From Parcubacteria group bacterium (GTDB lineage: Bacteria; Patescibacteriota; Minisyncoccia; Moranbacterales; UBA11712), in NCBI GenBank assembly GCA_041659685.1, contig JBAZXV010000002.1, forward strand, positions 39,527 through 103,526: a DNA stretch of 64,000 nucleotides, read 5' to 3'. A model generated the notes under the pieces. The model made no database searches. It saw only the letters and a program-made list of their open reading frames with translations, and had not been told where the DNA came from. Positions 6,885-26,127 of this stretch are shown here, one piece after another; the stretch's first letter is position 1, and each line of letters opens with the position of its first letter. Made by a program: the position numbers and the translations under genes.

Positions 6885-7448
6885 ATGAATATGAAATATC
6901 AACCGCCAAAATTTAGAGATAAAGAACTTTTGGAAATATTCCCAGAGGCTCGAGAAATAATTCCCGAAAAAATAGGGGAATGGAAAATTGAGCTACGCAT
7001 GAATGAGCAGATTATTGAAGATTGCTTGGCTTCTATATATGGACAGGCAACAGATGATTTTTCGATCTGGTTTTCTGAAGAAGCGGCAAAAACTTTCTTG
7101 ATGCCTCCGATCATGGAGGCCGAAAAACACATTTTGCGATTAAAGAGGATGCTATCTATTTTCAGCCCAAGTGGGAAGAGGCTGGAACGCTGGCAGGATA
7201 AAATGGAAATCGCGCGACAGTACCCGATTTATGAGATCGCAAGCGGCAACCTTACGCTAAAACAGTCCGGGGATAAATTTTTGTCCCTTTGCCCATTCCA
7301 CGATGAAAAGCACGCTAGTTTTTTTATCTTTACCAAAACTAACACATTTCATTGTTTCGGATGTCAGGAACACGGCGATGTAATCAAATTAACAATGTAT
7401 TTGCACGGAATCAACTTCAAAGAGGCCGTGAGAATGCTACAAAATTAA
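6885..7448 (+). CDS. DNA primase-type CHC2 zinc-finger protein (phage/plasmid primase N-terminal domain)
   Basis: CPFHDEKHASFFIFTKTNTFHCFGCQEHGDVIKL matches the DnaG/phage-primase zf-CHC2 signature CPFH..PSF......CFGCG..GDVI. Confidence 0.6.
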   Translation: MNMKYQPPKFRDKELLEIFPEAREIIPEKIGEWKIELRMNEQIIEDCLASIYGQATDDFSIWFSEEAAKTFLMPPIMEAEKHILRLKRMLSIFSPSGKRLERWQDKMEIARQYPIYEIASGNLTLKQSGDKFLSLCPFHDEKHASFFIFTKTNTFHCFGCQEHGDVIKLTMYLHGINFKEAVRMLQN

Positions 7449-7449
7449 T

Positions 7450-8517
7450 ATGAATATTGAAGAAAAAAAGTTTGAAGAGATTAAAAATGAGGTCAAAAGC
7501 AAAGAGCATTTGAAGGACACTTTCAAGGCGATCAGCTTGAACCAGCTTTACTCCATGGAATTTCCAGCGAGCAAGTGGGTAATTGAAAAACTCATCCCAC
7601 ATGAAAGTATAACTATTATTTCCGGCGCTCCGGCGAGCTTCAAGTCATGGCTAATCCTAAGAATGGCTTTAGATATTGCCAAGGGAGAAAGCCTACTGGG
7701 TCAATTCAAATGCGAGAAATACAAAGTTCTAATTATCGATGAAGAAAATCATTTGCGTTTAGTCCAAGATAGGTTAAAGCGTTTGGGAGCTGAAGACAAT
7801 CTTCCTATCTTCTTTTTATCTCAAAAAGGATTTTTAGTTTCCAAAAAGGGAATGATCGAAAATGTGCTAGAGATATGCGGACAAGAAGAAATCGATGTTA
7901 TTTTTATTGATTCACTAGTTAGGATCAGTAAAGCGGAAGAAAATGATGCTTCCCAAATGTCAGAAGTTTTCAGAGGCATTAAGCAATTTTGCCAGAATGG
8001 TAAAACAGTAATTATTACTCATCACGAACGAAAAGAAGGCGCGGTAAAAGGTACTGCGCAAGCTAGATTAAGGGGATCTTCAGATATACAAGCCTCTGTT
8101 GATTGCCATTTGGCACTTCGAAGAGATAAAAATGATAAAACTAAATTAGTGGTAGAGCAAGCCAAGCTTCGAACAGATGAAGAAGCCGAATCATTTGAAG
8201 TGGCTGTTCAGAAGGTTGAAGGAAAAACAGAGTTTAGCTTTCTCGGCATGTATTCAAAAGACAAAAGCAAAATGGAGACAGCTAAAGAAATTATCCAATC
8301 TGTTTTGGAAGAAGAACAAGATGGGCTGTGCAGAAAAGAAATATTCCAGCGCGTGAGGGAGATTGAGAACATTAATGATAAGAGCATCAGAGAGGCCATC
8401 GAATACCTTTTGAGTGAGAAAATTATACTGGAAAAGAAAGGAGAAGGAAACACAAAAATATGTTATCTCGCAAAGTTTTATCAAGAAGAAATAGATCCGC
8501 AAGAAGCCTTAATCTAA
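7450..8517 (+). CDS. RecA-like AAA_25/RepA-DnaB-type helicase ATPase (mobile-element replicative helicase)
   Basis: Walker A-like IISGAPASFKSWLILRMALDIAKG and Walker B VLIIDEENH. The architecture is typical of phage P4-like or integrative-element primase-helicase pairs. Its start overlaps the stop of the upstream primase zinc-finger gene. Confidence 0.55.
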   Translation: MNIEEKKFEEIKNEVKSKEHLKDTFKAISLNQLYSMEFPASKWVIEKLIPHESITIISGAPASFKSWLILRMALDIAKGESLLGQFKCEKYKVLIIDEENHLRLVQDRLKRLGAEDNLPIFFLSQKGFLVSKKGMIENVLEICGQEEIDVIFIDSLVRISKAEENDASQMSEVFRGIKQFCQNGKTVIITHHERKEGAVKGTAQARLRGSSDIQASVDCHLALRRDKNDKTKLVVEQAKLRTDEEAESFEVAVQKVEGKTEFSFLGMYSKDKSKMETAKEIIQSVLEEEQDGLCRKEIFQRVREIENINDKSIREAIEYLLSEKIILEKKGEGNTKICYLAKFYQEEIDPQEALI

Positions 8518-8568: not shown

Positions 8569-9507
8569 ATGAATCAGGATAATCTCGTCAAAATTGAAGA
8601 ATGTTTTCGAAACGCCAGTATCACTGACGAGCTTTGTCTTGCTTCCATAAAAAAATATACGAGTTCAATGAGAAAGTTTTTTGCAGTTATCGGCGACAAG
8701 AAGCTGGAAGATTTAAGTAATGAAGATATTGATAATTTTATAATTAAAATGAAAGGAGGTATTGATAATTCAACAATTAGAAGCGTAATTTATGCAGTCA
8801 AATGGATTGTAAAAAGCATGCAGAATAGGAGGGTGGTTTTTCAGCACTTAGATTTATTATTAATTAAACAACCCAAAATTATGAAAAAAGAAGTCAATTA
8901 TCTCACGGAAAATGAGATCGAGCAATTCATAAATTGTATCAAGAAAGATATTGATAAAAGGGAGACTGTGAAAAAAATCAGGTTTATGGCTTTTGTGATG
9001 TTGCTTTTGCAAACGGGGGCAAGAATTGGAGAAGTATTGTCTATAAATATTGAAGATATAAACAGGCAAAATAAAGAAATTCCGATTATTGGAAAAGGAA
9101 ATAAACCCGGGACGCTATTTTTGAGAGACGAGACAATAAATTGGATCATTAAATATCTATCAGTAAGAGGGGGTAATAACAAAGCATTATTCACTACCCT
9201 TAATGGAGAATCGCGATGGGAGCAAACAGATGCAGGCCGGTCTTTTAGGAGATACAGGAAAATGTCGGGGATAGCGAAGAAATTTACTATTCATACTCTA
9301 CGACATACCTTTGCCACCCATCTTTTGCAGGAAGGAAAACCACTGCCTACAGTTCAGGCCGCATTAAGGCATTCCGATCCGATGACGACACTTAGATTTT
9401 ATTCCGGCGCCGTTGAGAAAGCTAAAGTCAAAGAAATGATCAACGACCGACATTTTGATTTTATCCCACAGTCAGCCCTGAAAGCTGAGCCAAAAGTGGA
9501 TATATAG
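8569..9507 (+). CDS. Tyrosine site-specific recombinase / integrase
   Basis: C-terminal catalytic motifs HTLRHTFATHLLQEGKPLPTVQAALRHSDPMTTLRFY (the R..H..R..Y box) and ARIGEVLSINIEDI (box I Arg). Confidence 0.8.
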   Translation: MNQDNLVKIEECFRNASITDELCLASIKKYTSSMRKFFAVIGDKKLEDLSNEDIDNFIIKMKGGIDNSTIRSVIYAVKWIVKSMQNRRVVFQHLDLLLIKQPKIMKKEVNYLTENEIEQFINCIKKDIDKRETVKKIRFMAFVMLLLQTGARIGEVLSINIEDINRQNKEIPIIGKGNKPGTLFLRDETINWIIKYLSVRGGNNKALFTTLNGESRWEQTDAGRSFRRYRKMSGIAKKFTIHTLRHTFATHLLQEGKPLPTVQAALRHSDPMTTLRFYSGAVEKAKVKEMINDRHFDFIPQSALKAEPKVDI

Positions 9508-9625
9508 TAAAAGGATCAACTCAATAGGCATTTCTGAAAAACAAGCTTGTAATAGGCTTGTTTTGCTTTACTTTGCAGCTTTTTAGCAGTAAGATAAGTT
9601 TATATAAGGGATTATAGGATAATCT

Positions 9626-11179
9626 ATGCCTTCATTAAACTGGATCGGGAAAGAAGCCGTTGCAAACCACGATAAAGAGGTACCTTTTAAGCTGCTCCGA
9701 AAAGTTAAATCGGCCTCGGTAGGTGAAAATTCGCAAAATTTAATAATGCACGGGGATAATCTTGAGGCGCTGAAAGCCCTCATGCCTTTTTATGTTGGAA
9801 AAATAAAATGTATATACATTGATCCGCCGTACAATACCGGCAATGAAAAATGGATATATAACGACAGGGTTAATTCACCGAAAATAAGAAAGTGGATTGG
9901 TAGGGTGGTTGGAAGCGAAGCAGAAGATCTATCACGTCATGACAAATGGCTTTGCATGATGTATCCACGGCTAAAAATGTTGAAAGATTTATTGAGTAAT
10001 AACGGTGCTATATTTATCTCAATTGACGATGATGAGGGGCATTATTTGAAAGCTTTGTTGGATGATATTTTTGGTAGAGAAAATTTTGTCGCAAATATTA
10101 TTTGGGAAAAAAAGTATTCCCCTCAAAATGATGCGAAGTGGTTGTCCGATAGTCATGATCATATTTTGTTGTATGCAAAAGAGAAAGCCGTATGGCGCCC
10201 CAATCTATTGCCCCGAACGGAAGAGATGAATAATCGGTATAAAAATCCAGATAATGATCCACGTGGTTTATGGAAGTCGAGTGGTTTAGATGTGAAAACA
10301 TATTCAGCACATTATGATTTTCCAATAACAACACCCTCTGGCAGAACGGTGCAACCACCGCGAGGTGCTTGTTGGCGTGTATCAAAAGATCGATTTAAAG
10401 AATTAGTTGAGGATAATAGGATTTGGTTCGGGCCTGCAGGAAATAATGTGCCGTCAATAAAAAGATTTTTATCAGAAGTTCAAGATGGTGCAGTTTCTAA
10501 GACTATTTGGCTTAGAAAGGAAGTTGGTGACAATCAAGAGGCGAGGCAAATTTTGAAAGAACTTTTTCCTGAAAAGCACACTGATCTTTTTAATACGCCT
10601 AAACCCGTTAGACTCATTAATCGCATTCTTCAACTTTCGGTTGGCAAGAATGATTTGATCCTTGACTCCTTTGCCGGATCTGGGACAACTGGCCATGCGG
10701 TTTTGAATTTGAATAAGGAAGACGGCGGGAATAGGAAATTTATTTTAGTTGAAATGGAAGATAAAGTTGCCAAAGACATTACTGCCGAACGGGTAAAACG
10801 GGCGATCAAGAAATATAGATATAAAGACGGATTTGAATATTGCGAGCTAGATAAACCGCTGTTCAATGAAAAAGGGCAAATTGAGGAATCATGCGACTTT
10901 AACCAGTTTGCCACTTATATTTATTTCACGGAAACACAAAGGAACATTGATAAGAAAAGAATTAAAGGCAATTTTATTGGAGAGCTTGGCGGAACGGAAT
11001 ACCATCTGATCTATAAGGAAAAATATAAAAATGTTTTAAATGAATCTTTCTTAAAAAAGATTAAAAAAAGTGATAATAAAAAAGTGATTTATGCGGATAA
11101 GTGCCTGCTGGATGATGAAACACTAGCGAAATACAATATCCAGTTTAAGCAAATTCCGTATGAGGTTAAGGTTTATTGA
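9626..11179 (+). CDS. mod: Type III restriction-modification methyltransferase (Mod, N6-adenine)
   Basis: DPPYNTG motif IV. FDSFAGSGTTGHAV is an FxGxG SAM-binding motif located C-terminal to the DPPY motif (beta-class permutation). Followed by a DEAH helicase-nuclease Res gene. Confidence 0.85.
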   Translation: MPSLNWIGKEAVANHDKEVPFKLLRKVKSASVGENSQNLIMHGDNLEALKALMPFYVGKIKCIYIDPPYNTGNEKWIYNDRVNSPKIRKWIGRVVGSEAEDLSRHDKWLCMMYPRLKMLKDLLSNNGAIFISIDDDEGHYLKALLDDIFGRENFVANIIWEKKYSPQNDAKWLSDSHDHILLYAKEKAVWRPNLLPRTEEMNNRYKNPDNDPRGLWKSSGLDVKTYSAHYDFPITTPSGRTVQPPRGACWRVSKDRFKELVEDNRIWFGPAGNNVPSIKRFLSEVQDGAVSKTIWLRKEVGDNQEARQILKELFPEKHTDLFNTPKPVRLINRILQLSVGKNDLILDSFAGSGTTGHAVLNLNKEDGGNRKFILVEMEDKVAKDITAERVKRAIKKYRYKDGFEYCELDKPLFNEKGQIEESCDFNQFATYIYFTETQRNIDKKRIKGNFIGELGGTEYHLIYKEKYKNVLNESFLKKIKKSDNKKVIYADKCLLDDETLAKYNIQFKQIPYEVKVY

Positions 11180-11966
11180 TATGACTAAAAAGGGAAACGA
11201 AAGGATAGAGAAGTTAATAAAGGAAAGCGGAAATAATTTTCATTATCAGGTTGTAAATTTTTTACGTGAAAAGGCTTGGACTGTTTTAGTGAGTCCATAC
11301 TATAATGATTCTTTATCTGATAAATCCAAAGAGATTGATATAGTTGCAGAAAAGATTATCAACATTAAGGATAAGGTATTCGGAACAACTTTCGGTCAGC
11401 TTAAAATACGTTTTTTCATTGAATGTAAATACATAAATAATGATATTGCATTTTGGTTTGATGAAAGGGATAAAAATAAGGCTCGAGAATTAGTTATAAA
11501 GTCAACACCCTTAAAAGAGAATAATAGTTTTACGGACAAACACCATTATTTGGTTGATCAACCGGTGGCGAAACTATTTAGCTCAAATGCTAATAAGGAG
11601 GATGTAATATATAAAGCTCTGTCTCAAAGCCTTAATTCAATGATATATTTTGAAGGTAATCGTATTATTGTTGGCGAAGATTTTAGATCGGAAAATTATT
11701 ACACAATAAAATATCCAATAATTCTGTGCAATGGTTTTTCAAAATTTTACAAAGTAGAAGGAAGTGATTATTCACCCATTGATTATAATTTCCAATTGGA
11801 AGTGAACTACGCATACTTAGATAAAAATAAAAATAGCAGAAATGATTATCATTTGATAGATATTATTGACTTCAACAAACTGGATAATTTCTTAATAGAT
11901 TTAGAAAATGCAGACATTTCTGCGATTAGCGAAGTGCTTGCTTGGGATTGGAAAAACAATAATTAA
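11160..11966 (+). CDS. Hypothetical protein inserted between mod and res; possible PD-(D/E)xK nuclease-like core
   Basis: Overlaps the mod stop, and its own stop lies 6 nt before the res start. EIDIVAEK...FFIECKY resembles a D...E-x-K nuclease motif. Very AT-rich. The real start is probably M at 11181 (MTKKGNER). Confidence 0.4.
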   Translation: MRLRFIDMTKKGNERIEKLIKESGNNFHYQVVNFLREKAWTVLVSPYYNDSLSDKSKEIDIVAEKIINIKDKVFGTTFGQLKIRFFIECKYINNDIAFWFDERDKNKARELVIKSTPLKENNSFTDKHHYLVDQPVAKLFSSNANKEDVIYKALSQSLNSMIYFEGNRIIVGEDFRSENYYTIKYPIILCNGFSKFYKVEGSDYSPIDYNFQLEVNYAYLDKNKNSRNDYHLIDIIDFNKLDNFLIDLENADISAISEVLAWDWKNNN

Positions 11967-11971
11967 CCTAT

Positions 11972-14236
11972 ATGCAACTCAAAAAATATCAACAAAGGAC
12001 AATTGAAAAAGTTCAGGATTATTTGAAAGAACTTGCGAAGGCTGAGCCGAAATATGCTTTTATGGGATTGACTAATCAGCCATATAATAGCGACTTCTTC
12101 GGAGAAGTACCCTTTGTTTGCATAAAAATTCCAACTGGTGGTGGAAAGACGCTGGTCGGTTGTCATGTTGTCCGAGAAATTATGCAAACAATTCTTAAGC
12201 ATAAGATGGAACGGGGAATTGTGATGTGGTTTGTCCCTTCAGAAGCAATCAAGAGCCAAACACTTCGGAAATTCAAAGATCGCACGGATTGGCATAGGAG
12301 AATTTTGGATGAATCCTTTGAAAACGGAGTGAGGATTTTTTCCAATGAAGAGGCTTTGCGAATTAGGAAAGCGGACGTGAAGGACAATTTATGCATTATC
12401 ATTTCCAGCCTGGACGCTTTCCGAAAAGAAAAGAAGTTGCAGAATAAATACAAAGTCTATCAGGAAAATGGGGCATTGCTGGATCACTTTGAAAATATTC
12501 AAGAAAATGACGTTTTGGAAAAGGACGAGGAGAAAACGGTTATTAACTCACTAGCGAACGTGGTGAGGATGGATAACCCGCTTGTGGTGGTGGACGAGGG
12601 GCATAAAACAAAAACCCAGCTTTCCATTGATTTCTTGAAAGACTTGAATCCCAGTTTTATCATCGAGTACACGGCCACACCAAGAGGCGGAAGCAATATT
12701 TTGGTTGATATTTCTGCTTCCGAACTCAAAGAGGAACAAATGGTTAAAATTCCGATTGTGCTGGAAAGCGTCACGCAATGGCAGAATGCCGTGTCGGAAG
12801 GAATCGCTAAAAGGAAAGAATTGGAAAAAGAAGCCAAAAAACTCAAAGGTGAATATATCCGTCCGATAGTGCTATTGCAAGCCCAGCCGAAAAGCACGAC
12901 AAGCAATAATATTACAGTGGAACAGCTCAAGGAATTTTTACTAAATGCCAAGATAGCCGAAGACGAGATCGCCATCAAAACATCCGAAAGGAATGACATT
13001 GAGGGGGTGGATTTATTCAGCCGGAAATGCAAAATCCGCTATATTATTACGGTCAATGCTTTGGCCGAAGGATGGGATTGCTCCTTTGCCTATGTTTTAG
13101 TATCAGTTGCCAATTTGGGAGCTAAAATCGCCGTAGAGCAGATTATAGGGCGCATTATACGTATGCCAGAAGCAAAGAAAAAAGAGATCGAAGATTTAAA
13201 CCGCTCTTATATTTTTGCGTCAGCCCGGAACTTCAACGAATCAGCCACACAAATTATTTCCGGTTTGGAACACAATGGATACAGCCGGTTTGATCTAATC
13301 GCTTCAAAGCAAATTGGCGAAGCATATGAGTTAGAAGTTGAGCGTACAGTTAATAAAGATTTTTATGCTTCCATGATGAGCTTTGGGAACAAAATGCTAA
13401 CTTTTGAGGAATTGATAGGCGAAGATTTTGAACTGGCCAAACAGAATGCCGAATTTGACTTTGAAAATCACTATGACAATGACGGGCGGGCAATTATTGA
13501 TATTAGGGAGGATAAATGGATCAAGGGTAAACAGCAGACGTTGAAACTAACCATTCACGACAAAAATTTTTCCAAGGAGGAGCTAATTCAATGGCTGGAC
13601 AAGAGATTACGATTTATTTTGCTAGATAAAAGCGACAAAGTTGGATTTATCACGAAGGCCTTGGATTATCAATTAAAACACCGGTCTCTATTAGAGCTTT
13701 CAATTAATCGTTTTATCTTTTTGGAAAAACTCAATGAAGTGATAAATGGGATCTTGGAGGCATATGCAAAAAAGCGGTTTGATAAATTTATTGCTAGTAA
13801 GAAAATTTCAGTCAAGACATTTGATAAATTTCCAAAGACAATAATTTTGAATCAAGAAATACCTCAAGAGTTCAATAAAAGCTACTACAAGAAAATAGAC
13901 AAACTTAATAAAGAAGAATTAGCAATGATAGACAGGCTAGATTTGCAAACTTTGCCTAATATTGATTTCTGGATTCGCAACAGGGAAAAGAAAGACCCGT
14001 TTTATATTCAGGGCTGGCGGAAAGGAAAATTCTATCCAGACTTCATCGCTATTACCAAGAAAGGAAATATTGTCGCATTGGAATGGAAGGGAGAAGACAG
14101 AATTAGCAATGAAGACACGGGCTACAAAGTTTTGATTGGCGAACAATGGGCGAAATTAGGAAAAGGAAAATCGTATTTCTTTTTGGTGCATAATAAAAAT
14201 ATAGAGGAAGTGTTAAGCGGTTTGAAAAAATTATAG
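11972..14236 (+). CDS. res: Type III restriction enzyme Res subunit (SF2 helicase plus C-terminal PD-ExK endonuclease)
   Basis: Walker A IKIPTGGGKTLVGCH, DEAH-box VVVDEGHKT, helicase motif VI-like QIIGRIIRM. C-terminal FYPDFIAITKKGNIVALEWKGED is a PD...ExK motif. Confidence 0.85.
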   Translation: MQLKKYQQRTIEKVQDYLKELAKAEPKYAFMGLTNQPYNSDFFGEVPFVCIKIPTGGGKTLVGCHVVREIMQTILKHKMERGIVMWFVPSEAIKSQTLRKFKDRTDWHRRILDESFENGVRIFSNEEALRIRKADVKDNLCIIISSLDAFRKEKKLQNKYKVYQENGALLDHFENIQENDVLEKDEEKTVINSLANVVRMDNPLVVVDEGHKTKTQLSIDFLKDLNPSFIIEYTATPRGGSNILVDISASELKEEQMVKIPIVLESVTQWQNAVSEGIAKRKELEKEAKKLKGEYIRPIVLLQAQPKSTTSNNITVEQLKEFLLNAKIAEDEIAIKTSERNDIEGVDLFSRKCKIRYIITVNALAEGWDCSFAYVLVSVANLGAKIAVEQIIGRIIRMPEAKKKEIEDLNRSYIFASARNFNESATQIISGLEHNGYSRFDLIASKQIGEAYELEVERTVNKDFYASMMSFGNKMLTFEELIGEDFELAKQNAEFDFENHYDNDGRAIIDIREDKWIKGKQQTLKLTIHDKNFSKEELIQWLDKRLRFILLDKSDKVGFITKALDYQLKHRSLLELSINRFIFLEKLNEVINGILEAYAKKRFDKFIASKKISVKTFDKFPKTIILNQEIPQEFNKSYYKKIDKLNKEELAMIDRLDLQTLPNIDFWIRNREKKDPFYIQGWRKGKFYPDFIAITKKGNIVALEWKGEDRISNEDTGYKVLIGEQWAKLGKGKSYFFLVHNKNIEEVLSGLKKL

Positions 14237-14256
14237 GCATTTTATCAAAAGATAAC

Positions 14257-14886
14257 TTGAATAAACCAGAACATAAAAAAAGATTTGAAGAGTTGTTCAG
14301 ACTATTTACAGAAGCCCATTTATGCTTTTTTGTATGGAGGGGATTGCAGAAGAAAGAATACGAGAAATACTGGAAAAGAGATTCAAATTTTTGGAATGCC
14401 GTAATTTATTCATTACAAAGAACTTGGTTTCAAGCACTTGCTAATATTTATGAAGATTCGTCATATAGTAAAAAGAATAAAGTTATATCCGTTTACTCCC
14501 TTGTTTTGTTTCAAGAGGATGAGAAAAGAAGATCGGAATTAGAGAATATTTTGGATTCCAATAAAGTAGTTATTGAAAATATATCAAAACTTCGCCATCA
14601 TCAGTTATCTCATAATAATGCGAACTTCTTGTTAAATCCTAAATTAATGCTTCAGAAGTTTCCAATTAAACATGGTGATATTGAAAGACTTTTGCAATCA
14701 ACCGAAGAATTGCTTCGCTATCTCCATCCAGAAAATAATCATAGTTTTGCAATTTCAGGATTTGATGAAAAATGCGAAAAAGATTCCGGTAATATAATGA
14801 AAAAAATAGAATATTATCTTAAAAGAGAGAGGGAACACCAAGAAGAGATTCATTCAGGTAAAAAACCATATTCTGATTTTCCGTAG
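14257..14886 (+). CDS. Hypothetical protein; possible HEPN/AbiU2-like abortive-infection protein
   Basis: Immediately downstream of the Type III R-M system. Contains R-x5-H (KLRHHQLSHNNAN), compatible with a HEPN Rx4-6H motif. Weak. Confidence 0.35.
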   Translation: MNKPEHKKRFEELFRLFTEAHLCFFVWRGLQKKEYEKYWKRDSNFWNAVIYSLQRTWFQALANIYEDSSYSKKNKVISVYSLVLFQEDEKRRSELENILDSNKVVIENISKLRHHQLSHNNANFLLNPKLMLQKFPIKHGDIERLLQSTEELLRYLHPENNHSFAISGFDEKCEKDSGNIMKKIEYYLKREREHQEEIHSGKKPYSDFP

Positions 14887-15026
14887 CAATTGATATTCCC
14901 TATTGTAATTTCTTAAAAAGTGTAGTAGAATGTAAGTGTAAATTAACAACTTAATTCAGCTTTACATAAACAAGTTGATTCTTTGATCAACTTTTGCGAA
15001 AGTCCTGCTTCTTTTCTCCCGGAGAA

Positions 15027-15132
15027 CACCTCCTTTCTAGGGAGATACGGTGATATAGTGATATTCGTATCACTACAAACCTATACGGTCGTTAATAGAT
15101 TCAAGGCATACAGGGCAACCGCAAAAATTTGC
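15027..15132 (+). repeat. R1 element copy a (conserved ends CACCTCCTTTCTAGGGAGATACGGTG ... GGCAACCGCAAAAATTTGC; internal hairpin TAGTGATA-TTCG-TATCACTA)
   Basis: Member of a five-copy family (38811-38946, 42133-42261, 44184-44350, partial 50606-50626). The hairpin sequences differ between copies but complementarity is maintained. Confidence 0.6.
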
Positions 15133-15206
15133 AATTACAAGCTGAAAAATACCTCTTTGGTAATTTTTGGGCAAGAAGACTTACAGTTTCCGAATTGTAG
15201 GTCTTT

Positions 15207-16295
15207 TTGTTTATGAACGCCGAAAACAACATCTCCCCAAGAAGAGCTAGTTCCTACGCACATACGGATAGGGAGACTTGCTACATTTCCGACCATTTGG
15301 AAGGGTTTATGGAATACGGTGAGTATGAGCTGAATCTCGCGAAAATCACGATGGTCAAATACAAGGACGGGCTGATACATTTCACGAAGTATATCGGCGA
15401 CAAGGATGTGCGCGACATCACGCAGGCGGACATCATCAAGCTGAAACGCCTTATGCGGGAAAAGGGAGTGGGAGCATTGAGAGTCGGGACGGTTATTTGG
15501 GCTTTGCGAAGTTTTATGAATTATTGCAACAATTTTTTGGGCGTGCGGACTATAAACCCGAAATCAATAAGACCCCCGCGTGCCCCGAAGAGAGAAGTGA
15601 TTTTCCTCACGAAAGAGGAAGTCGGGCAGTTCGTCGATTCAATCGACACCTCAAAATTGATGGGGCTTCGTTTCAGGGCGTTGGTGGAAATCATTCTTGG
15701 GACGGGAATGAGAATCAGCGAAGTCTTGTCGCTCAACAGAAAAAACATCCCCTGGGAAAGCAAGGAAGCGAAAATCATCGGAAAAGGCAACAAGGAACGC
15801 GCGGTTTTCTTTACGGACAGGGCTTTAACTTGGATTCGGCGGTATTTGGAAAAAAGGTTTGATTCCAACGAGGCGGTGTTCGCGACGGAAGACGGGATGA
15901 GAAGGCTGAAACTGGACGACATATCGAAGTTTTTCATCGCGGCGCGGAAGAAGGCGGGAATGGACAAGCTCATCACGCCCCACATTTTGCGCCACACCGT
16001 TGCGACGAATTTGGTTTTCAATGGCTGTCCGCTTCCGCACGTCAAGGAGATTTTGGGGCACGAACTGCTGGATACGACTTGCAAATACTACCTTGGCGTG
16101 GACAAGGAACAAGCGAAAAAAGCTCATCGCGAATATCTAACTTTTAACACTTGGGAATCAAGACCAAGAAATGACCAACAACTACGAGAAAAAAGAGAAC
16201 GGCAAGAACGCGACCGGCAGGCCGCCGAAGTTCAGTTCGCCCGAAGAAATGGAAAGGATGGGAATGGAGCATATCGAGGAATGCAGGAAGAATGA
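15207..16295 (+). CDS. Tyrosine recombinase / integrase (GC-rich, likely foreign)
   Basis: RISEVLSLNRKNI (box I) and HILRHTVATNLVFNGCPLPHVKEILGHELLDTTCKYY (box II with catalytic Tyr). About 50% GC against a ~33% background. The 3' end probably lies before 16295 and overlaps the next ORF. Confidence 0.75.
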   Translation: MFMNAENNISPRRASSYAHTDRETCYISDHLEGFMEYGEYELNLAKITMVKYKDGLIHFTKYIGDKDVRDITQADIIKLKRLMREKGVGALRVGTVIWALRSFMNYCNNFLGVRTINPKSIRPPRAPKREVIFLTKEEVGQFVDSIDTSKLMGLRFRALVEIILGTGMRISEVLSLNRKNIPWESKEAKIIGKGNKERAVFFTDRALTWIRRYLEKRFDSNEAVFATEDGMRRLKLDDISKFFIAARKKAGMDKLITPHILRHTVATNLVFNGCPLPHVKEILGHELLDTTCKYYLGVDKEQAKKAHREYLTFNTWESRPRNDQQLREKRERQERDRQAAEVQFARRNGKDGNGAYRGMQEE

Positions 16296-16596
16296 CAAAC
16301 CTATCACCATTACGGGAATTTGCCTAAAACTGGACACAACCCGCCAGACTTTGCTGGATTATGAGAGGAAGAACGAGTTTTCTGACACGGTAAAAAGGCT
16401 TAAACTGCACGCCGAGAACTATGCCGAGGAAACTTTATACAACAAGAACGGGCGGGCGGTAGTCGGCGCGATTTTCGCGCTCAAGAATTTCGGCTGGAGC
16501 GACAAAATGGAATTTGAAAACAGCTACAAGCCTCAAATTATGACCGAGGAAGAACGGGAGAAAATGCGCGAGAGAATAAGGAATTTTGATGAGTAG
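16171..16596 (+). CDS. Phage terminase small subunit-like protein (prophage remnant)
   Basis: GRPPKFSSPEEMERMGMEHIEECRKNDKPITITGICLKLDTTRQTLLDYE...AVVGAIFALKNFGWSDK matches the conserved TerS pattern (GRP.kf....., HTH, ..FaLKn.GW.DK). No large terminase or structural genes follow. Confidence 0.55.
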   Translation: MTNNYEKKENGKNATGRPPKFSSPEEMERMGMEHIEECRKNDKPITITGICLKLDTTRQTLLDYERKNEFSDTVKRLKLHAENYAEETLYNKNGRAVVGAIFALKNFGWSDKMEFENSYKPQIMTEEEREKMRERIRNFDE

Positions 16597-16890: not shown

Positions 16891-17814
16891 ATGGACATAA
16901 AATCATTAGAAACTATGCAAGACATAGATTTTCTCCAATATACGGCGAAGCGGATTTTTGATTTGCTGGATATAAGCGAAAACACCCGCGAAGACTATAA
17001 GTCGCGGGTTTATTTGTATTTGCGATTTGTTCAAGAAAACGGATACAACTTTAACAGCTTTCTCGACTTCAAAAGGGAATTGGAAAAAAGAACGGATTTG
17101 AGCACGGCGACAAAAAACAAATACTTGGCGACGGCAAAGATATTTCTCAAGGAACTGAATCGGCAAGGAATTATTCCCGCTGACATTACGCAAAATATAA
17201 AAACCTTCAAGCAAAGCAAGAAGCATAAACGGGAAGGCTTGAATGATGGTGAAATAAAATTGCTGGTTGATAGGTTCAAGCAGTTGCCAGCCACATCCGA
17301 AAGCACCCGTCTCAAAGCTATTTTAAGTCTGTTGATTTTTCAGGGGCTTCGCCAGATTGAAATTGTAAGGCTGGATATAAAGGATTTAGACTTCACGGCA
17401 AAGATGGCTTTCGTGCTAGGCAAAGGAAGGGACGACAAGGAATCGATAGATTTGCATCCTGAAACAATCAGGAATCTCAAGGAATACCTCAAAACAAACA
17501 AAATAGCGGACGGCGCGTTATTCACAAATAGAAGCAACAATGGAAAGGGTAAAAGAATCACGACCCGTGCTTTACGCGGTATAATCAAAACCATCCTTAA
17601 AGATTTGAAAATTGACAAGACTACGCACGGCTTCCGCCATTATTTCACTTCGAAGCTCATTGAGACTTACAAGGGCGATTTGCTGGAAGTTGCCCGCTAT
17701 ACCCGCCATAAGAGCCTTGAAATGTTGCAAGTCTACAATGACAACATCAAGCGCAAAGCCGATTTGCCGAGATATTATGAGACTTTCGGGGGCATAAAGT
17801 TATCAAGCGATTAG
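16891..17814 (+). CDS. Tyrosine recombinase XerC/D-like integrase (intact paralog of the pseudogene at 1-657)
   Basis: LRQIEIVRLDIKDLDF (box I region) and HGFRHYFTSKLIETYKGDLLEVARYTRHKSLEMLQVYND (box II with catalytic Tyr). About 70% amino-acid identity to the fragment at the window start. Confidence 0.85.
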   Translation: MDIKSLETMQDIDFLQYTAKRIFDLLDISENTREDYKSRVYLYLRFVQENGYNFNSFLDFKRELEKRTDLSTATKNKYLATAKIFLKELNRQGIIPADITQNIKTFKQSKKHKREGLNDGEIKLLVDRFKQLPATSESTRLKAILSLLIFQGLRQIEIVRLDIKDLDFTAKMAFVLGKGRDDKESIDLHPETIRNLKEYLKTNKIADGALFTNRSNNGKGKRITTRALRGIIKTILKDLKIDKTTHGFRHYFTSKLIETYKGDLLEVARYTRHKSLEMLQVYNDNIKRKADLPRYYETFGGIKLSSD

Positions 17815-19313: not shown

Positions 19314-20798
19314 ATGCCCAAAATATCGCTTAAAGAGCTGGAGTCTTTTCTTTGGAAAAGCGCTGATATTCTTCGAGGAAAAATCGATTCCAGTGATTAT
19401 AAAAAATACATTTTCGGACTGCTTTTCTATAAGCGGATAAGTGATGTTTGGCTTGAAGAGCACGAGGAGTTTGCGAAAGAATATAAAAACACGGGCGCGG
19501 AAGAAGAGCCTTTTCACCGCTTCCAACTTCCCGAAGACGCACGCTGGGAAATTATTCAAAATGCTTCGCAGGAAATTGGCGTGAAACTCGACAAAATTTT
19601 TGACAAACTCACCAACGCCAACAGCCCGAAACTCGACAAAATTTTCGACGACCTCAACTTCGCTGATGCCGACCGCTTCCCGAACGATGTTCTTCAAAGA
19701 CTGATAAACCATTTTTCGCAATACAATTTCGGAAACACCTATATCAACTCGGACATTCTCGGCGACGCTTACGAATATCTCATCAAGCACTTTGCCGCCG
19801 ATGCGGGCAAAAAAGGCGGCGAGTTCTACACCCCGCGCGAAGTGGAGCGAGTAATAATCCAAATTTTGAAGCCCCACGAAAAAGACCATATCTATGACCC
19901 CACTTGCGGAAGCGGTGGTTTTTTATTGGAAGCCTATCATTTCGTCAAAGAAAAATACGGCAAGGAAGCGACGAGAAAAATATATCTTTATGGGCAGGAG
20001 ATGAACATCGGCACATACGCCATCGCTAAAATAAATATGTTTCTTCACGGGCTGGACGGCTCGGATATCAGGCGAGAGGACACTTTGCGAGAACCGCTTT
20101 TTAAAGACGAACTGGGCAACCTCAAGACTTTCGATATTGTCGTAGCTAATCCACCCTACTCAATCAAAGAATGGGCGCACGAACTTTTCGAAGCCGACAA
20201 ATTCGGCAGAAAAGACGGCTTTGACACCCCGCCCAGAAAAAACGCCGACTATGCTTTCGTCCTTCATATGATTGCCTCACTCAACAAAAACGGCAAAGCG
20301 GGAATCGTCCTGCCGCACGGCGTGCTTTTCCGAGGCGGAGCGGAAGGAAGAATCAGAAAACAGATAATCGACAAGGATTTGTTTGAGGCGATTGTGGCGC
20401 TTCCAGCAAAACTTTTCTATGGCACGGGCATTCCCGCTTGCATTTTGATACTGAATAAAAATAAGCCGAAGGAGCATAAAAATAAAATCTTGTTCATCGA
20501 CGCGGAAAAGGATTATCTTGAAGGCAAAAATCAAAATAGCTTGCGGGAGCAGGACATTGAAAAAATCATCAAAGCCTTTGACGGCTACAAGGATATTGTG
20601 AAATATGCGCGTGTTATCGGCTATGAGGAACTGAAAGAAAATGATTTCAATCTCAATGTGCGGCGTTATGTCGAAAATGGCGAAGATGAAGAAAAAATTG
20701 ATGTGAAAAAAGTTTGGGCAGAGCTCAAGGAGCTTGAAAAAGAGCGGGAGAAAATCGATGGGGAAGTGGCAGGGTTTATAAAAGAATTAGGATATTGA
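19314..20798 (+). CDS. hsdM: Type I restriction-modification methyltransferase subunit HsdM
   Basis: N-terminal HsdM_N-like LWKSADILRG. Motif I DPTCGSGGFL. Motif IV VVANPPYS. Confidence 0.9.
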   Translation: MPKISLKELESFLWKSADILRGKIDSSDYKKYIFGLLFYKRISDVWLEEHEEFAKEYKNTGAEEEPFHRFQLPEDARWEIIQNASQEIGVKLDKIFDKLTNANSPKLDKIFDDLNFADADRFPNDVLQRLINHFSQYNFGNTYINSDILGDAYEYLIKHFAADAGKKGGEFYTPREVERVIIQILKPHEKDHIYDPTCGSGGFLLEAYHFVKEKYGKEATRKIYLYGQEMNIGTYAIAKINMFLHGLDGSDIRREDTLREPLFKDELGNLKTFDIVVANPPYSIKEWAHELFEADKFGRKDGFDTPPRKNADYAFVLHMIASLNKNGKAGIVLPHGVLFRGGAEGRIRKQIIDKDLFEAIVALPAKLFYGTGIPACILILNKNKPKEHKNKILFIDAEKDYLEGKNQNSLREQDIEKIIKAFDGYKDIVKYARVIGYEELKENDFNLNVRRYVENGEDEEKIDVKKVWAELKELEKEREKIDGEVAGFIKELGY

Positions 20799-20799
20799 A

Positions 20800-21057
20800 A
20801 TGGGAAAAGATTATAAGCTTGAAATATCGGAATCAATAAAACTTGACGACTGGTCAAGAAATTTAGGCAAGTCGGGAGAAAAAGTTAAAGGTAAGCCCAA
20901 AAGGGAAATTGAGCAATATGTCGGGAATAGAGATAAGAACGTCGTTTCGGAATTTGAAAGATTGAGAGAAAAAAACAAAAAAACGAAAGTGATTCATAGG
21001 TTATGGAGAAGATTTGGGAATATTTTCAAAAAAGTTCACGAACACGAAAAAGAATAA
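20800..21057 (+). CDS. Small basic hypothetical protein (85 aa) within the Type I R-M operon
   Basis: Start adjoins the hsdM stop. No motif. Confidence 0.3.
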   Translation: MGKDYKLEISESIKLDDWSRNLGKSGEKVKGKPKREIEQYVGNRDKNVVSEFERLREKNKKTKVIHRLWRRFGNIFKKVHEHEKE

Positions 21058-21066
21058 ATTAACAAT

Positions 21067-21564
21067 ATGTCGGACGATAATAAAAATACTAAAGATGAGG
21101 AAATAAAAGAAAGAATAAGAGATGAAGATTTCAAAGCTTTGTGTAAGCAAAGAGAATCTCTTGATAAAGCGAGAATCCAAATGTCCAATGTCTTCGACAA
21201 GTATCTTCTAACTTTTTCGACTGGTGGTTTATTTTTGTCGGTTAGTTTCACAAATACGATTATAGGGAATGAAATAAACCAGAAGAATCTTTTGTCTATA
21301 GGCTGGATATTTTTGATAGTATCAATAATTTCAGTTTTATTTTCTTTCAATTTTAGTGAATATGCTCACGAAAGGCATATACAAATAGTCGATGCTCTTA
21401 TCAAAACCAAACGAAAAAAGAATAGCGAAGAAGGAGTGAATATAATTGTGAATATGGAAAATTGTTGGAAGAAGCCCTTGTTTATTTTTAGGTGGCTTGC
21501 GATTTTTGCTTTTATAAGCGGGATAATAATATTAAGCAGATTTTATTTCTTAAACATAAAATAA
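21067..21564 (+). CDS. Hypothetical membrane protein (about 3 TM) within the Type I R-M operon
   Basis: Charged N-terminus then TM helices (GGLFLSVSF..., IGWIFLIVSIISVLF, WLAIFAFISGIIILS). Confidence 0.4.
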   Translation: MSDDNKNTKDEEIKERIRDEDFKALCKQRESLDKARIQMSNVFDKYLLTFSTGGLFLSVSFTNTIIGNEINQKNLLSIGWIFLIVSIISVLFSFNFSEYAHERHIQIVDALIKTKRKKNSEEGVNIIVNMENCWKKPLFIFRWLAIFAFISGIIILSRFYFLNIK

Positions 21565-21750
21565 TGACAAATCAACCAAACGAGAAAAAAAGACCGACGG
21601 AAGAGCCTAAACCAGAGCCCTCCATCCCAGAAAGAGAAATTCCTGATTCTCCTCGCAGAGGGAGCGAACCACTCACGCCTGGAAGAGATGATAAAGGGCT
21701 GAATCCAAATGACATTTTTCCCGTTGAGGGAGGAGATAAAAAATAGATTT

Positions 21751-22989
21751 ATGTCAAAAGTCAGAGAAAAGCTAAAAGAAGAATGGATAAGAGTAAAGCT
21801 GGCAGATATAAGCCAGATAAAGAGAGGAGCATCTCCAAGACCAATTGGCGACCCTCGATATTTTTCAGATAAAGGAAGAGGTTGGATAAGAATATCCGAT
21901 GTATCAAAATCATATAAATATTTGAAAAGAACTAAACAATATTTATCTGAACTAGGAGAAGAGAGAAGTGTGAAGGTAGACAGAGGAGATTTAATTATGA
22001 GTATATGCGCTACGGTTGGCAAACCAATAATGATAAAAATACCAGCTTGTATTCACGATGGTTTTGTTTTGTTTGACAAATTGCATAAAAAAAAAGTTGA
22101 TACAGAGTTTCTTTTTTATGCTTTGCTAAATTCCGAGAATACATTTTTAGGAAGCGGGCAAACTGGCTCACAGAAAAACCTAAATACTACAATCGTAGGA
22201 AATACAGAAATTTTATTGCCTCCTATTTACAAGCAGAAAATAATCGCTGAAATTTTATCGAAGGTTGACGAGGATATCGAAAAAACGTGTGAGGTGATAA
22301 AAAAGTCGGAAAAAATAAAGAAGGGTTTAATGCGAGAACTTTTTACAAAAGGAATCGGACATAAAAAATTAAAAAAAACAAAATTGGGAATGATTCCTGA
22401 AGAGTGGGAGGTTTTATCACTAGGGGAAATGGGAATCTTTTCAAAAGGAAAAGGAATTTCAAAAAAAGAATTGATACCGACTGGTTTACCCGCAATACGA
22501 TACGGGGAAATATATACCAAGCATAATTTTATTATAAAAAAGTTTTATTCTTTTATATCTAAAAAAACAGCAAGTGAGAGCATTTCTATAAAAAAAGGCG
22601 ATATTCTGTTCACTGGTTCAGGAGAGACTCCAGAAGAAATTGGTAAATCTGTTGCATATTTAGGTGATGAGAAGGCGTATGCGGGGGGTGATATTATTAT
22701 ATTTTCGCCAAGTAAAGGCAACAGCCTCTTTTTGAGCTACCTCTTTAACAGTCCTTTGGTTAGAAATGATTTAACGAAATTGGGTCAGGGAAATTCAGTA
22801 GTGCATATGTATAAGGGGCTTCTGGAAAAAATAAAAGTTGCTATACCAAATATTGATGAACAAAATAATATCGCTGGAATCATTTCAAAGATTGATGAAA
22901 AAATTGATGGGTATAAAAAAACAAAGTCTAAACTTGAAACCCTCAAAAAAGGATTGATGCAGGATTTATTAAGTGCAAAAAATTTATGA
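21751..22989 (+). CDS. hsdS: Type I restriction-modification specificity subunit HsdS (two target-recognition domains)
   Basis: Canonical N-terminus EEWIRVKLADISQIKRGASP and central conserved LPPIYKQKIIAEILSKVDEDIEKT, with a repeated C-terminal LETLKKGLMQDLLS. The start is chosen at the ATG preceded by a GAGGGAGGAG Shine-Dalgarno sequence. The ORF track's alternative start is 21709. Confidence 0.85.
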   Translation: MSKVREKLKEEWIRVKLADISQIKRGASPRPIGDPRYFSDKGRGWIRISDVSKSYKYLKRTKQYLSELGEERSVKVDRGDLIMSICATVGKPIMIKIPACIHDGFVLFDKLHKKKVDTEFLFYALLNSENTFLGSGQTGSQKNLNTTIVGNTEILLPPIYKQKIIAEILSKVDEDIEKTCEVIKKSEKIKKGLMRELFTKGIGHKKLKKTKLGMIPEEWEVLSLGEMGIFSKGKGISKKELIPTGLPAIRYGEIYTKHNFIIKKFYSFISKKTASESISIKKGDILFTGSGETPEEIGKSVAYLGDEKAYAGGDIIIFSPSKGNSLFLSYLFNSPLVRNDLTKLGQGNSVVHMYKGLLEKIKVAIPNIDEQNNIAGIISKIDEKIDGYKKTKSKLETLKKGLMQDLLSAKNL

Positions 22990-24053: not shown

Positions 24054-24073
24054 ATTTATTGAACGAATAAAAA

Positions 24074-24937: not shown

Positions 24938-24945
24938 ATATAACT

Positions 24946-25656
24946 ATGGGATTAAAAGAGGAGATTACGGAAAAAGTAAAAGGTTATATGGGCTCTGCCT
25001 ACGAAATTACTGATGGCAATGTTATACCCGACAAGCAAAGCATTGGTTTTGGCGCAAAAGCGAAAAGATTAAAACACGCAATAGTTATGTATGCTGATTT
25101 GAGAGGTTCGAGGGGGATATTATCTGATAATACCAAACTATTAACCTGTAGAGCGCACAAATCTTTTTTATATGCCGCTGCCAAGTGCATAAGAAATGAA
25201 GATGGTCATTTGAGAAGTTTTAACGGCGATAGCTTATTGGCATTTTTTATCGGAGAAGATGCCGCGAAAAGAGCTGTTAGAGCGGCAATGAAAATTAAAT
25301 TTGCTGTTGTGAAAATCATCAATCCAATTTTAGAGGAAAAGGGAAAGAAAAAATTAAATTTTGGAATTGGTATCGGGCAGGGAGAAATTATGGTTGTTAA
25401 GAGCGGAGTTCCTGGCGAAGAAATGTATCAGGATTTGATATGGATTGGATGGGCGACATATCACGCTTTTGAATACGGCGACAGAGCAAGGTCTCCTCGG
25501 AATATCTGGATTTCAAAAAATGTCTATAAAACTATAGAGGATGATAAGAGCTTGACTCAATCTAATGGAAAAAGTATCTGGGTTTATAATGACGACCAAG
25601 AATTTTCTTTTGGGAAAGTTAGAGTATATAAAACCAGTTATCACTGGAATATATAA
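24946..25656 (+). CDS. Class III nucleotidyl cyclase-homology protein, copy 2 (possibly the degenerate partner of a heterodimer)
   Basis: AIVMYADLRGSRGI and SFNGDSLLAFFIGED reproduce the two Asp-containing strands. The downstream G..G...w.G region is present (GIGIGQGEIMVV...DLIWIGWATYHAF), but the Asn/Arg positions are not conserved. Confidence 0.5.
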   Translation: MGLKEEITEKVKGYMGSAYEITDGNVIPDKQSIGFGAKAKRLKHAIVMYADLRGSRGILSDNTKLLTCRAHKSFLYAAAKCIRNEDGHLRSFNGDSLLAFFIGEDAAKRAVRAAMKIKFAVVKIINPILEEKGKKKLNFGIGIGQGEIMVVKSGVPGEEMYQDLIWIGWATYHAFEYGDRARSPRNIWISKNVYKTIEDDKSLTQSNGKSIWVYNDDQEFSFGKVRVYKTSYHWNI

Positions 25657-25658
25657 AT

Positions 25659-26120: not shown

Positions 26121-26127
26121 AATAATT

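What the first reader, a model, noticed from the sequence alone, without database searches (positions are those of the whole stretch)
9626..14886. Type III R-M operon with an extra gene between mod and res and a downstream HEPN/AbiU2-like gene
- Seen in sequence: mod (DPPY N6-adenine methyltransferase) and res (DEAH helicase plus C-terminal PD-ExK) are separated by an 807-bp gene, 11160-11966, whose start overlaps the mod stop and whose stop lies 6 nt before res. Translational coupling therefore looks likely.
- The inserted protein has a candidate D...ECK nuclease-like motif and an extremely AT-rich sequence.
- A 209-aa gene follows res by 21 nt and has an R-x5-H HEPN-like motif.
- Canonical Type III systems are two-gene (mod-res). 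A conserved third component would be unusual. It could be an accessory nuclease, an anti-restriction control factor, or an unrelated inserted defence gene.
Basis: partly seen in the sequence, partly recalled or inferred. Interest (0 to 1): 0.5.

Follow-up and report, generated by a model that had tools for sequence, protein, structure and literature searches.

The report
Swappable defence gene inside restriction operon
The extra gene between the two halves of this restriction-modification system is not a third subunit: it is one of at least 17 unrelated, interchangeable cargo genes (here an uncharacterised DNA-cutting enzyme) that related operons carry at the same spot, which makes that spot a good place to look for new anti-virus genes.

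Summary
It is a Type III mod (9626-11179) and res (11972-14236) pair with a tightly packed gene X between them, followed by an AbiU2-type HEPN gene (14257-14886). The likely start of X is ATG 11181, one base after the mod stop.

- **X is not a conserved third subunit:**
  - The closest Res relative (85% identity) has mod abutting res.
  - Res keeps its own nuclease motif in every relative.
  - X-bearing operons have different Mod target-recognition regions.
  - Most X homologues are not next to any Type III genes.
- **The junction is a variable slot:** Of 41 non-redundant related mod/res junctions, 16 are empty. The other 25 carry co-directional inserts from 17 unrelated families, including AbiU2/HEPN, TIR, PIN, YhcG nuclease and small membrane proteins.

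This extends the known "embedded defence gene" pattern (PrrC; guilt-by-embedding) to Type III systems. The function of X is inferred, not shown.

The parts
9538..9564 (+). Terminator-like hairpin between the upstream integrase gene and mod. It marks the mod operon as a separate transcription unit.
   Evidence: No terminator-like site was found on the + strand between 9564 and 15300.
9626..11179 (+). mod: Type III beta-class N6/N4 DNA methyltransferase, 517 aa. DPPY is at 9821-9832, FAGSG at 10670-10684, and the variable target-recognition region is about residues 186-320.
11177..11183 (+). mod stop / X start junction, TGA-t-ATG. An SD-like AAGG lies inside the conserved 3' end of mod.
   Evidence: L059-L061 have the same junction.
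11181..11966 (+). X: 261-aa cargo gene of an unnamed family. The N-terminal half is a PD-(D/E)xK nuclease domain, and the C-terminal half is a beta-rich region plus a long helix of unknown fold. The mechanical ORF begins at 11160.
11331..11432 (+). Predicted catalytic core of X: E51-I-D53...E57 (11331-11354) and I-E81-C-K83-Y (11418-11432).
   Evidence: Invariant in alignment A1. Coordinates.
11972..14236 (+). res: Type III restriction subunit, 754 aa. It has an SF2 helicase (TGGGKT 12134-12151, DEGH 12593-12604, GRIIR 13139-13162) and a C-terminal PD...ExK nuclease (14036-14089).
14257..14886 (+). AbiU2-type HEPN gene, 209 aa, TTG start. The R-x5-H motif is at 14593-14613. This is a second cargo gene, 20 nt after res.

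Best explanation
This is an intact, ordinary two-subunit Type III restriction-modification operon. It belongs to a lineage in which the very short mod/res junction (1-18 nt when empty, 1-12 nt in relatives with Res 64% or more identical) serves as a hypervariable slot for single, co-directional cargo genes.

In this genome (a Parcubacteria-group MAG) the slot holds X. X is a self-contained, horizontally mobile 261-aa protein whose N-terminal half is a catalytically intact PD-(D/E)xK nuclease. X is not part of the Type III enzyme. It is transcribed with mod and res, and is probably translated by termination-reinitiation at TGA-t-ATG, using the Shine-Dalgarno-like sequence inside the conserved 3' end of mod. 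A second cargo gene, an AbiU2-type HEPN (predicted RNase), rides directly after res.

The inferred biology is layered immunity. Mod/Res cuts unmethylated incoming DNA. X (a DNA nuclease with its own, unknown trigger or specificity) and AbiU2 act as extra or back-up lines that travel and are expressed with the R-M genes. Cargo is probably exchanged by recombination between the conserved mod 3' end and res 5' end.

Shown here: the gene anatomy, family membership of Mod, Res and AbiU2, the fold and conserved active site of X, the variable slot, and the dispensability of X for mod-res.

Inferred: nuclease activity, a defence role, translational coupling, and the exchange mechanism.
For: - Slot: of 41 non-redundant junctions from relatives of this Res, 16 are empty and 25 hold inserts on the same strand (one ORF, two in three loci) from 17 unrelated families. 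The ORFs usually start 1-7 nt after the mod stop and end 0-14 nt before the res ATG.
- Typical defence and abortive-infection content: HEPN_AbiU2 (L076, L099, L071), CAP12/Pycsar-type TIR (L103), YhcG PDDEXK nuclease (L111), HTH-ImmA plus DUF4411 PIN (L113), PIN (L115), and several small membrane proteins.
- Cassette type is scattered on the Res tree. Four close relatives (L069, L070, L071, L074) carry four different cassettes, and the same cassette families occur in distant Res lineages.
- The nearest Res relative, L097 (85% identical), has no cassette.
- Inserts have lower GC than their flanks in 24 of 25 loci.
- Res keeps its helicase and PD...ExK motifs in all 31 non-redundant relatives.
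- X-bearing operons differ in the Mod target-recognition region (39% identity, against 75-76% in X-less L073 and L086).
- X elsewhere: 58 genome loci across many phyla have no conserved neighbour. Yet X is often beside defence genes: Type I, IIG and III R-M, PifA, DpdF, DRT, MADS, PDC-M36A.
- The same window holds a Type I operon with an embedded PIN gene and a Pycsar system.
- Precedent: PrrC in EcoprrI and HEPN genes in R-M operons (PMC3710099); guilt-by-embedding in Hma, BREX, DISARM and Type I R-M (bioRxiv 10.1101/2024.01.29.577857).
Against: - No experiment supports this. Nuclease activity, defence, co-transcription and coupling are all inferred.
- X recurs with Type III genes more often than a purely random passenger might. 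It lies between mod and res in this lineage (four loci) and after mod in a second lineage (L123), and after res in L018 and L006. Some functional tie to Type III enzymes is therefore not excluded.
- No repeats or recombination sites mark the cassette borders, so the exchange mechanism is a guess.
- The survey covers relatives of one Res lineage found through six peptide patterns. It is not a census.
Confidence: 0.7

Rival explanations
1. PrrC-like guardian. X, and the other slot occupants, are functionally wired to the Type III enzyme. X is held inactive by binding Mod/Res and is released as a nuclease when a phage anti-restriction protein disables the R-M complex.
For: - X is embedded in the operon, co-oriented and tightly coupled.
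- The slot is filled with classic suicide effectors: HEPN, TIR, PIN and membrane proteins.
- X is repeatedly found with Type III genes in three or more lineages.
- There is the PrrC precedent, and the proposal that R-M-linked HEPN proteins work this way (PMC3710099, PMC12707154).
Against: - At least 48 of 58 genome loci with X have no R-M component within 7 kb, so X must be safe and regulated on its own.
- PrrC, by contrast, is almost exclusively embedded (bioRxiv 10.1101/2024.01.29.577857).
- X-bearing operons have different Mod target-recognition regions.
- There are no interaction data.
Confidence: 0.15
2. X is a true third subunit or accessory nuclease of the Type III enzyme in this sub-lineage, giving a three-component Type III system.
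For: mod-X-res is kept in window, L059/L060 and L061 although X has diverged to 59-70% identity. The start and stop spacing suggests coupled translation.
Against: - The closest Res relative lacks X.
- Sixteen other unrelated families occupy the same position.
- Res keeps its own PD...ExK site.
- Most X homologues are not near any Type III genes.
- The documented three-gene Type III variant has an SF2 ATPase 5' of mod, which is a different thing (PMC8259958).
Confidence: 0.06
3. X is a passenger with no host benefit. The junction is simply a tolerated 'genomic sink', and X is a selfish or addictive nuclease gene, or a homing-type endonuclease, that hitch-hikes on the R-M operon.
For: - X has low GC relative to its flanks.
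- It has a patchy distribution across phyla with no conserved neighbour.
- The genomic-sink idea is discussed in bioRxiv 10.1101/2024.01.29.577857.
Against: - The active site is strictly conserved, and 268 or more clusters have uniform full length. This argues for selection on function.
- X is enriched near defence genes.
- The slot also takes non-nuclease genes, so homing by X cannot explain the slot.
- There is no hit in the plasmid or phage collections.
Confidence: 0.07
4. X is a Type II-like restriction endonuclease that relies on Mod methylation for self-protection, so two nucleases share one methylase.
For: X has a PD-(D/E)xK fold like many Type II enzymes and is adjacent to a methyltransferase gene.
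Against: - X-bearing operons carry different Mod target-recognition regions.
- About 80% of X homologues have no methyltransferase nearby.
Confidence: 0.02

Closest known systems
PrrC anticodon nuclease embedded in the EcoprrI Type Ic R-M operon
   Same: A nuclease gene sits inside an R-M operon, co-oriented with it. The accepted reading is a second line of defence (PMC3710099, PMC12707154).
   Different: - The host system here is Type III, and the position is between mod and res.
- X is a PD-(D/E)xK (DNase-type) protein, not an ABC-ATPase-HEPN RNase.
- X is mostly found outside R-M operons.
- No evidence shows that Mod/Res masks X.
Embedded defence genes in Hma, BREX, DISARM and Type I R-M ('guilt-by-embedding', Payne et al. 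2024, bioRxiv 10.1101/2024.01.29.577857)
   Same: Diverse, mostly co-oriented defence or unknown genes are nested inside multi-gene defence systems. A single embedded instance is taken as a lead for a defence function.
   Different: - That study did not analyse Type III R-M.
- Here the insertions fall at one nucleotide-precise junction with coupling-type spacing.
- X matches none of the PADLOC models, which include the PDC/HEC candidates.
Upx, Hjc and Mrr-like PD-(D/E)xK nucleases
   Different: - There is no detectable sequence similarity.
- Upx is a 1212-aa dual-nuclease protein (PMC13099982), and Hjc is a 120-aa resolvase.
- X has an extra, unassigned C-terminal half.
AbiU2 (HEPN) abortive-infection proteins, for the 209-aa downstream gene
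   Same: It scores above the Pfam PF18734 cut-off and has the R-x5-H motif. AbiU2 is already listed as occurring in R-M operons (PMC3710099). A 57% identical relative follows res of another Type III system.
   Different: It is only 209 aa, uses a TTG start, and has no PADLOC hit. RNase activity is untested.
Three-gene Type III systems with an extra SF2 ATPase (Murray et al. 2021, PMC8259958)
   Same: These are Type III loci with more than two genes.
   Different: There, the extra gene is conserved, lies 5' of mod and has no nuclease motif. Here, the extra gene is variable, lies between mod and res, and is a nuclease.
Variable defence hotspots flanked by conserved genes (P2/P4 hotspots, PMC9122126)
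   Same: Conserved flanks surround a rapidly exchanged set of unrelated defence genes.
   Different: The flanks here are the two genes of one enzyme, and the cargo has to preserve expression of the downstream res.

Membership tests
Type III R-M, Mod subunit | Beta-class N6/N4 methyltransferase (DPPY before FxGxG) with a full-length match to Type III Mod profiles | tested here: met
   PF01555 at 1e-39. PADLOC MTase_III PDLC03644 at 2.8e-195 over residues 1-516. DPPY at 66-69 and FAGSG at 349-353.
Type III R-M, Mod subunit | Variable central target-recognition region between conserved N- and C-terminal parts | tested here: met
   Residues 186-320 are 13-76% identical among relatives, while the flanking parts are 55-85% identical.
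Type III R-M, Res subunit | SF2 helicase motifs plus a C-terminal PD-(D/E)xK endonuclease motif | tested here: met
   PF04851. PADLOC REase_III at 5.5e-89. TGGGKT, DEGH, GRIIR and PD(x13)EWK are conserved in 31 relatives.
Type III R-M | ATP-dependent cleavage that needs two inversely oriented unmethylated sites; hemimethylation by Mod | not testable with these tools
   Needs biochemistry and methylome sequencing.
Subunit of the Type III enzyme (for X) | Consistent co-occurrence with mod and res among relatives of either partner | tested here: not met
   X is absent from 37 of 41 non-redundant related junctions. Only 2 of 58 genome loci with X have a Type III pair.
PD-(D/E)xK nuclease superfamily (for X) | Restriction-endonuclease-like fold with conserved D...(D/E)xK | tested here: met
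Type IV (modification-dependent) restriction enzyme (for X) | Nuclease domain fused to a recognisable modified-base reader (SRA/PUA/EVE/wHTH/iEndoIII, etc.), with no cognate methylase | tested here: inconclusive
PrrC-type R-M guardian (for X) | Near-exclusive embedding in R-M operons, and latency imposed by the R-M complex | tested here: not met
   Exclusive embedding is not met. Latency and interaction cannot be tested here.
Any catalogued defence system (PADLOC 2.0, including PDC/HEC candidates) (for X) | Profile match | tested here: not met
   No PADLOC, Pfam, NCBIfam or PHROGs hit at E<=0.1. No PDB hit by sequence or profile.
HEPN_AbiU2 (for the 209-aa gene) | Pfam PF18734 above the gathering score, and an R-x4-6-H motif | tested here: met
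   28.9 bits against a 26.8 cut-off. RHHQLSH at 113-119 aligns with the R...H of the slot AbiU2 proteins L099 and L071.

The most novel reading that the evidence does not exclude
The mod/res junction of this Type III lineage may be a dedicated, modular 'effector socket'. On this reading, unrelated effectors (the X nuclease, HEPN RNases, TIR, PIN, pore-like membrane proteins) are each held in check by, or take their activation signal from, the same Mod/Res complex. A phage that inhibits or overwhelms the restriction enzyme would then trigger whichever effector is plugged in. X would be a new nuclease effector family with a new regulatory C-terminal domain.
Probability: 0.15. Interest if true: 0.75.

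Novelty: new variant of a known kind. Interest (0 to 1): 0.5.

Why it matters
- **Reach of the pattern:** Embedding of defence genes inside defence operons is documented for Type I R-M, BREX, DISARM and Hma. I found no description of it for Type III systems in the searchable literature.
- **A natural experiment:** One Type III lineage has 17 unrelated gene families at a single junction that is 1-18 nt long when empty, with the downstream res still intact.
- **New candidates:** The slot gives a short list of candidate defence genes that no database names. These are the X family and at least eight unannotated small proteins, most of them membrane proteins.
- **A test bed:** It offers a compact system for asking whether embedded genes are guards of their host system or mere co-travellers.
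- **Annotation:** mod-X-res loci should not be read as three-subunit enzymes.

Tried and rejected
- **Naming X by sequence:** Pfam, NCBIfam, PADLOC and PHROGs gave nothing. PDB by phmmer and by profile gave nothing. tblastn against the plasmid and phage collections gave nothing.
- **Fold searches:**
  - Foldseek against PDB gave only weak PD-(D/E)xK hits.
  - The afdb50 library was not available.
- **Viral contigs:** Scanning viral contigs with Res found no relative.
- **Promoters:** The promoter scan was uninformative, with 19 sites found against 19.7 expected.
- **Cassette borders:** I looked for repeats or recombination sites at the borders and found none, only the conserved mod 3' and res 5' coding ends.
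- **Recombination breakpoint:** Segment-wise Mod/Res identities were inconclusive apart from clear swapping of the target-recognition region.
- **Rejected ideas:**
  - X replaces a degenerate Res nuclease. Rejected because the Res motifs are intact everywhere.
  - X is an END nuclease. Rejected because those carry an inactive EndoIII domain (PMC12191111), whereas the C-terminal half of X is beta-rich.
Full report
**Observation.**
- Mod (9626-11179) is a beta-class methyltransferase. It hits PF01555 and matches PADLOC's Type III Mod model PDLC03644 end to end at 2.8e-195. DPPY is at residues 66-69, ahead of FAGSG at 349-353.
- Res (11972-14236) hits PF04851 and PADLOC REase_III. It carries TGGGKT, DEGH (not DEAH), GRIIR and a C-terminal P689-D690...E704-W-K706.
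- The middle ORF is open from 11160. NCBI's gene model (261 aa, WC831_01620, Parcubacteria group MAG) and the three syntenic homologues all start at the ATG one base after the mod stop (TGA t ATG). I therefore take 11181 as the start.
- X stops at 11966, five bases before the res ATG.
- The last gene (14257-14886, TTG start, 20-nt spacer after res) passes the Pfam cut-off for HEPN_AbiU2 and has RHHQLSH at residues 113-119.
- X and the AbiU2 gene are 29.5% and 30.5% GC, against 37.5% and 38.8% for mod and res.
- A terminator-like hairpin lies upstream of mod, and none lies inside the operon.

**What X is.** X has no match in Pfam, NCBIfam, PADLOC, PHROGs or PDB sequences.
- It is nevertheless a real and sizeable family. 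The indexed search found 882 homologues. An exhaustive profile search found 268 cluster representatives at E<=1e-30, 478 at E<=1e-10 and 1069 at E<=1e-3. In the best 150 listed, complete proteins are about 250-295 aa with no fused domains.
- An alignment of 24 members has invariant S16-G-N, E51, D53, E57, E81-C82-K83, Q149 and others.
- The AlphaFold model is confident (pLDDT 88, pTM 0.87).
- X is therefore most likely an active nuclease with an unrecognised second half.

**Is X a third Type III subunit?** I approached this from both sides.
- *From X:*
  - The 58 reference-genome loci with an X homologue span Nitrospirota, Desulfobacterota, Gammaproteobacteria, Patescibacteria, Planctomycetota, cyanobacteria and an archaeon. 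They share no conserved neighbour.
  - Only L018 (mod-res-X) and L006 (mod-res-70 aa-X) involve Type III genes. Both belong to other lineages, and in both X lies after res.
- *From Res:*
  - A metagenome scan returned 57 loci with Res 33-85% identical.
  - The closest relative, L097 (85%), has mod and res separated by 7 nt and no X.
  - Res keeps every helicase and nuclease motif in all 31 non-redundant relatives, so X does not stand in for a lost Res nuclease.
  - The X-bearing operon L059 shares only 39% identity with the window in the Mod target-recognition region. X-less L073 and L086 share 75-76%. X is therefore not tied to one methylation specificity.
- *On the other hand:* the two nearest X relatives (59-61% identity) do sit in mod-X-res operons of this same lineage (L059/L060, L061). 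A 49% identical X follows mod in a different Type III lineage (L123: mod-X-442 aa-res). The arrangement recurs, but it is not obligatory.

**The unexpected result: a variable slot.** Among 41 non-redundant mod/res junctions, 16 are empty (spacer 18 nt or less).
- The other 25 are filled on the same strand, by one ORF or by two in three loci. The ORFs usually start 1-7 nt after the mod stop and end 0-14 nt before the res ATG.
- The occupants fall into 17 unrelated families:

| Slot occupant | Loci |
|---|---|
| X | window, L059, L060, L061 |
| HEPN_AbiU2 | L076, L099, L071 |
| Another HEPN-like protein | L081 |
| CAP12/Pycsar-type TIR protein plus a second gene | L103 |
| YhcG/DUF1016 PDDEXK nuclease | L111 |
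| HTH-ImmA/IrrE plus DUF4411 PIN | L113 |
| PIN pair | L115 |
| At least seven small membrane-protein families | |
| Three families with no annotation | |

- On a Res tree the cassettes are scattered. One tight clade (L069, L070, L071, L074) has four different occupants, and the TM-A, TM-B and AbiU2 cassettes recur in distant branches.
- Inserts have lower GC than their flanks in 24 of 25 cases.
- The flanking coding ends are conserved even at the DNA level: FKQIPYEVKVY* at the mod 3' end and MQLKKYQQ at the res 5' end. The mod 3' end contains the SD-like sequence used by whatever gene follows.
- The position after res is also variable. It holds AbiU2 here, T5orf172 in L059, a RelA/SpoT-like protein in L067/L068, and DUF3644 (a HEPN family according to PMC3710099) in L086. 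In other loci, ordinary host genes follow res.
- A 57% identical relative of the window's AbiU2 follows res of a classical HI_1054-type Type III system.

**Is X a defence gene?** The evidence is indirect.
- Beyond the embedding, X's neighbours elsewhere include Type I (L051, L026), Type IIG (L003) and Type III R-M, plus PifA (L025), PDC-M36A (L052), DpdF, PsyrT, a DRT reverse transcriptase, a GajB-like helicase and MADS genes. By a rough count, a fifth to a quarter of loci are affected.
- One X homologue lies in a prophage-like accessory region, and one lies next to an AbiTii-like gene.
- Many other neighbours are transporters and housekeeping genes.
- About 80% of homologues lack any nearby methyltransferase. 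A free-standing sequence-specific restriction enzyme is therefore unlikely. X must be either modification-dependent or otherwise triggered or regulated.

**Mechanism, with its status.**
- *Shown:* an intact Type III pair; a conserved, probably active nuclease gene inserted at a junction that accepts many unrelated genes; and spacing compatible with termination-reinitiation.
- *Inferred:*
  - One transcript from about 9570 to 14900.
  - X and AbiU2 act as independent extra layers (DNA and RNA nucleases) alongside restriction.
  - Cargo is exchanged by homologous recombination between the conserved mod and res ends.
- *Main rival:* a PrrC-type guard in which Mod/Res restrains X until a phage inhibitor removes it. 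This cannot be excluded and is the more interesting reading. Its main weakness is that most X genes live without any R-M partner.

**Relation to what is known.**
- PrrC in the EcoprrI Type Ic operon is the classic embedded nuclease. Anantharaman et al. list AbiU2 and 15 other HEPN clades in R-M operons and propose PrrC-like back-up roles (PMC3710099; review PMC12707154).
- Payne et al. showed that Hma, BREX, DISARM and Type I R-M systems often contain nested, 96.7% co-oriented genes, and used this to predict 145 candidates (bioRxiv 10.1101/2024.01.29.577857).
- Type III was not part of that analysis. X matches none of the PADLOC models, which do include those candidates.
- The only three-gene Type III variant I found in the literature has a conserved SF2 ATPase 5' of mod (PMC8259958), which is a different thing.
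- I found no paper describing inserts between mod and res. The search covers open-access text only.

**Verdict.**
- The 'third component' reading is not supported. The 'inserted defence gene' reading is supported.
- The wider pattern is a hypervariable cargo slot at the mod/res junction of one Type III lineage, plus an unnamed nuclease family. This is a new variant of a known phenomenon, useful for defence-gene discovery but not conceptually surprising.
- I score interest at 0.5.

Noticed in passing
window 19314-29049: A Type I R-M operon: hsdM 19314-20798, hsdS 21709-22989, hsdR 26128-29049. It has its own embedded cargo between hsdS and hsdR: a PIN_12 protein (22986-24053) and a complete-looking Pycsar set with two PycC cyclases (24074-24937, 24946-25656) and a PycTM effector (25659-26120). 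This is a second embedded-defence case in the same island.
   Followed up: partly
window 29942-30862: A 306-aa protein matches the PADLOC candidate PDC-S18 end to end (1.3e-103), just downstream of hsdR.
   Followed up: no
window 8569-9507, 15207-16295, 16891-17814; repeats 9544-9566 / 15121-15143: Three tyrosine recombinase genes lie within 9 kb. The first two (36% identical) directly bracket the mod-X-res-AbiU2 module. A 23-nt imperfect inverted repeat (74%) lies in the two intergenic regions next to them. This may be an invertible or excisable module, or it may be chance in AT-rich DNA.
   Followed up: partly
window 6885-8517 and 16171-16596: A CHC2 primase zinc-finger protein and an AAA_25 (RepA-like) ATPase lie upstream. 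Downstream, a gp3-like small terminase/HTH gene overlaps the 3' end of the second integrase gene by about 125 nt. These are hallmarks of a mobile element or satellite carrying the defence island. No tRNA gene was found in the window.
   Followed up: no
L123 313-5405: A different Type III lineage (Mod 28% identical) with the layout mod - X homologue (49% identical) - a 442-aa protein I could not annotate - a res that looks truncated at its 3' end. This is a second, independent capture of X directly after a mod gene.
   Followed up: partly
L103 3376-4986: The mod/res slot here holds two genes: a CAP12/Pycsar-type TIR effector (PF10137, 8e-40) and a 245-aa protein with a faint proteasome/Ntn-hydrolase-like match. 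No cyclase is nearby.
   Followed up: no
window 10181-10585 (Mod residues 186-320) versus L073, L086, L097: The central region of Mod is swapped independently of Res. L073 and L086 share it with the window (75-76% identity), while the closest Res relative L097 has a different one (21%). This implies exchange of specificity within the lineage.
   Followed up: partly
L074, L106/L107, L109, L117; L069, L078/L093; L084/L085; L101; L102; L086; L090: Most unnamed slot occupants are small proteins (80-254 aa) with an N- or C-terminal hydrophobic helix, and one has a zinc ribbon. They may be membrane-disrupting effectors, and none is in Pfam or PADLOC.
   Followed up: no
L068 7267-8148 and L086 6330-7334: Genes coupled directly after res in relatives include a RelA/SpoT-like nucleotide pyrophosphokinase (possibly a toxSAS-type toxin) and a DUF3644 HEPN protein.
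   Followed up: no
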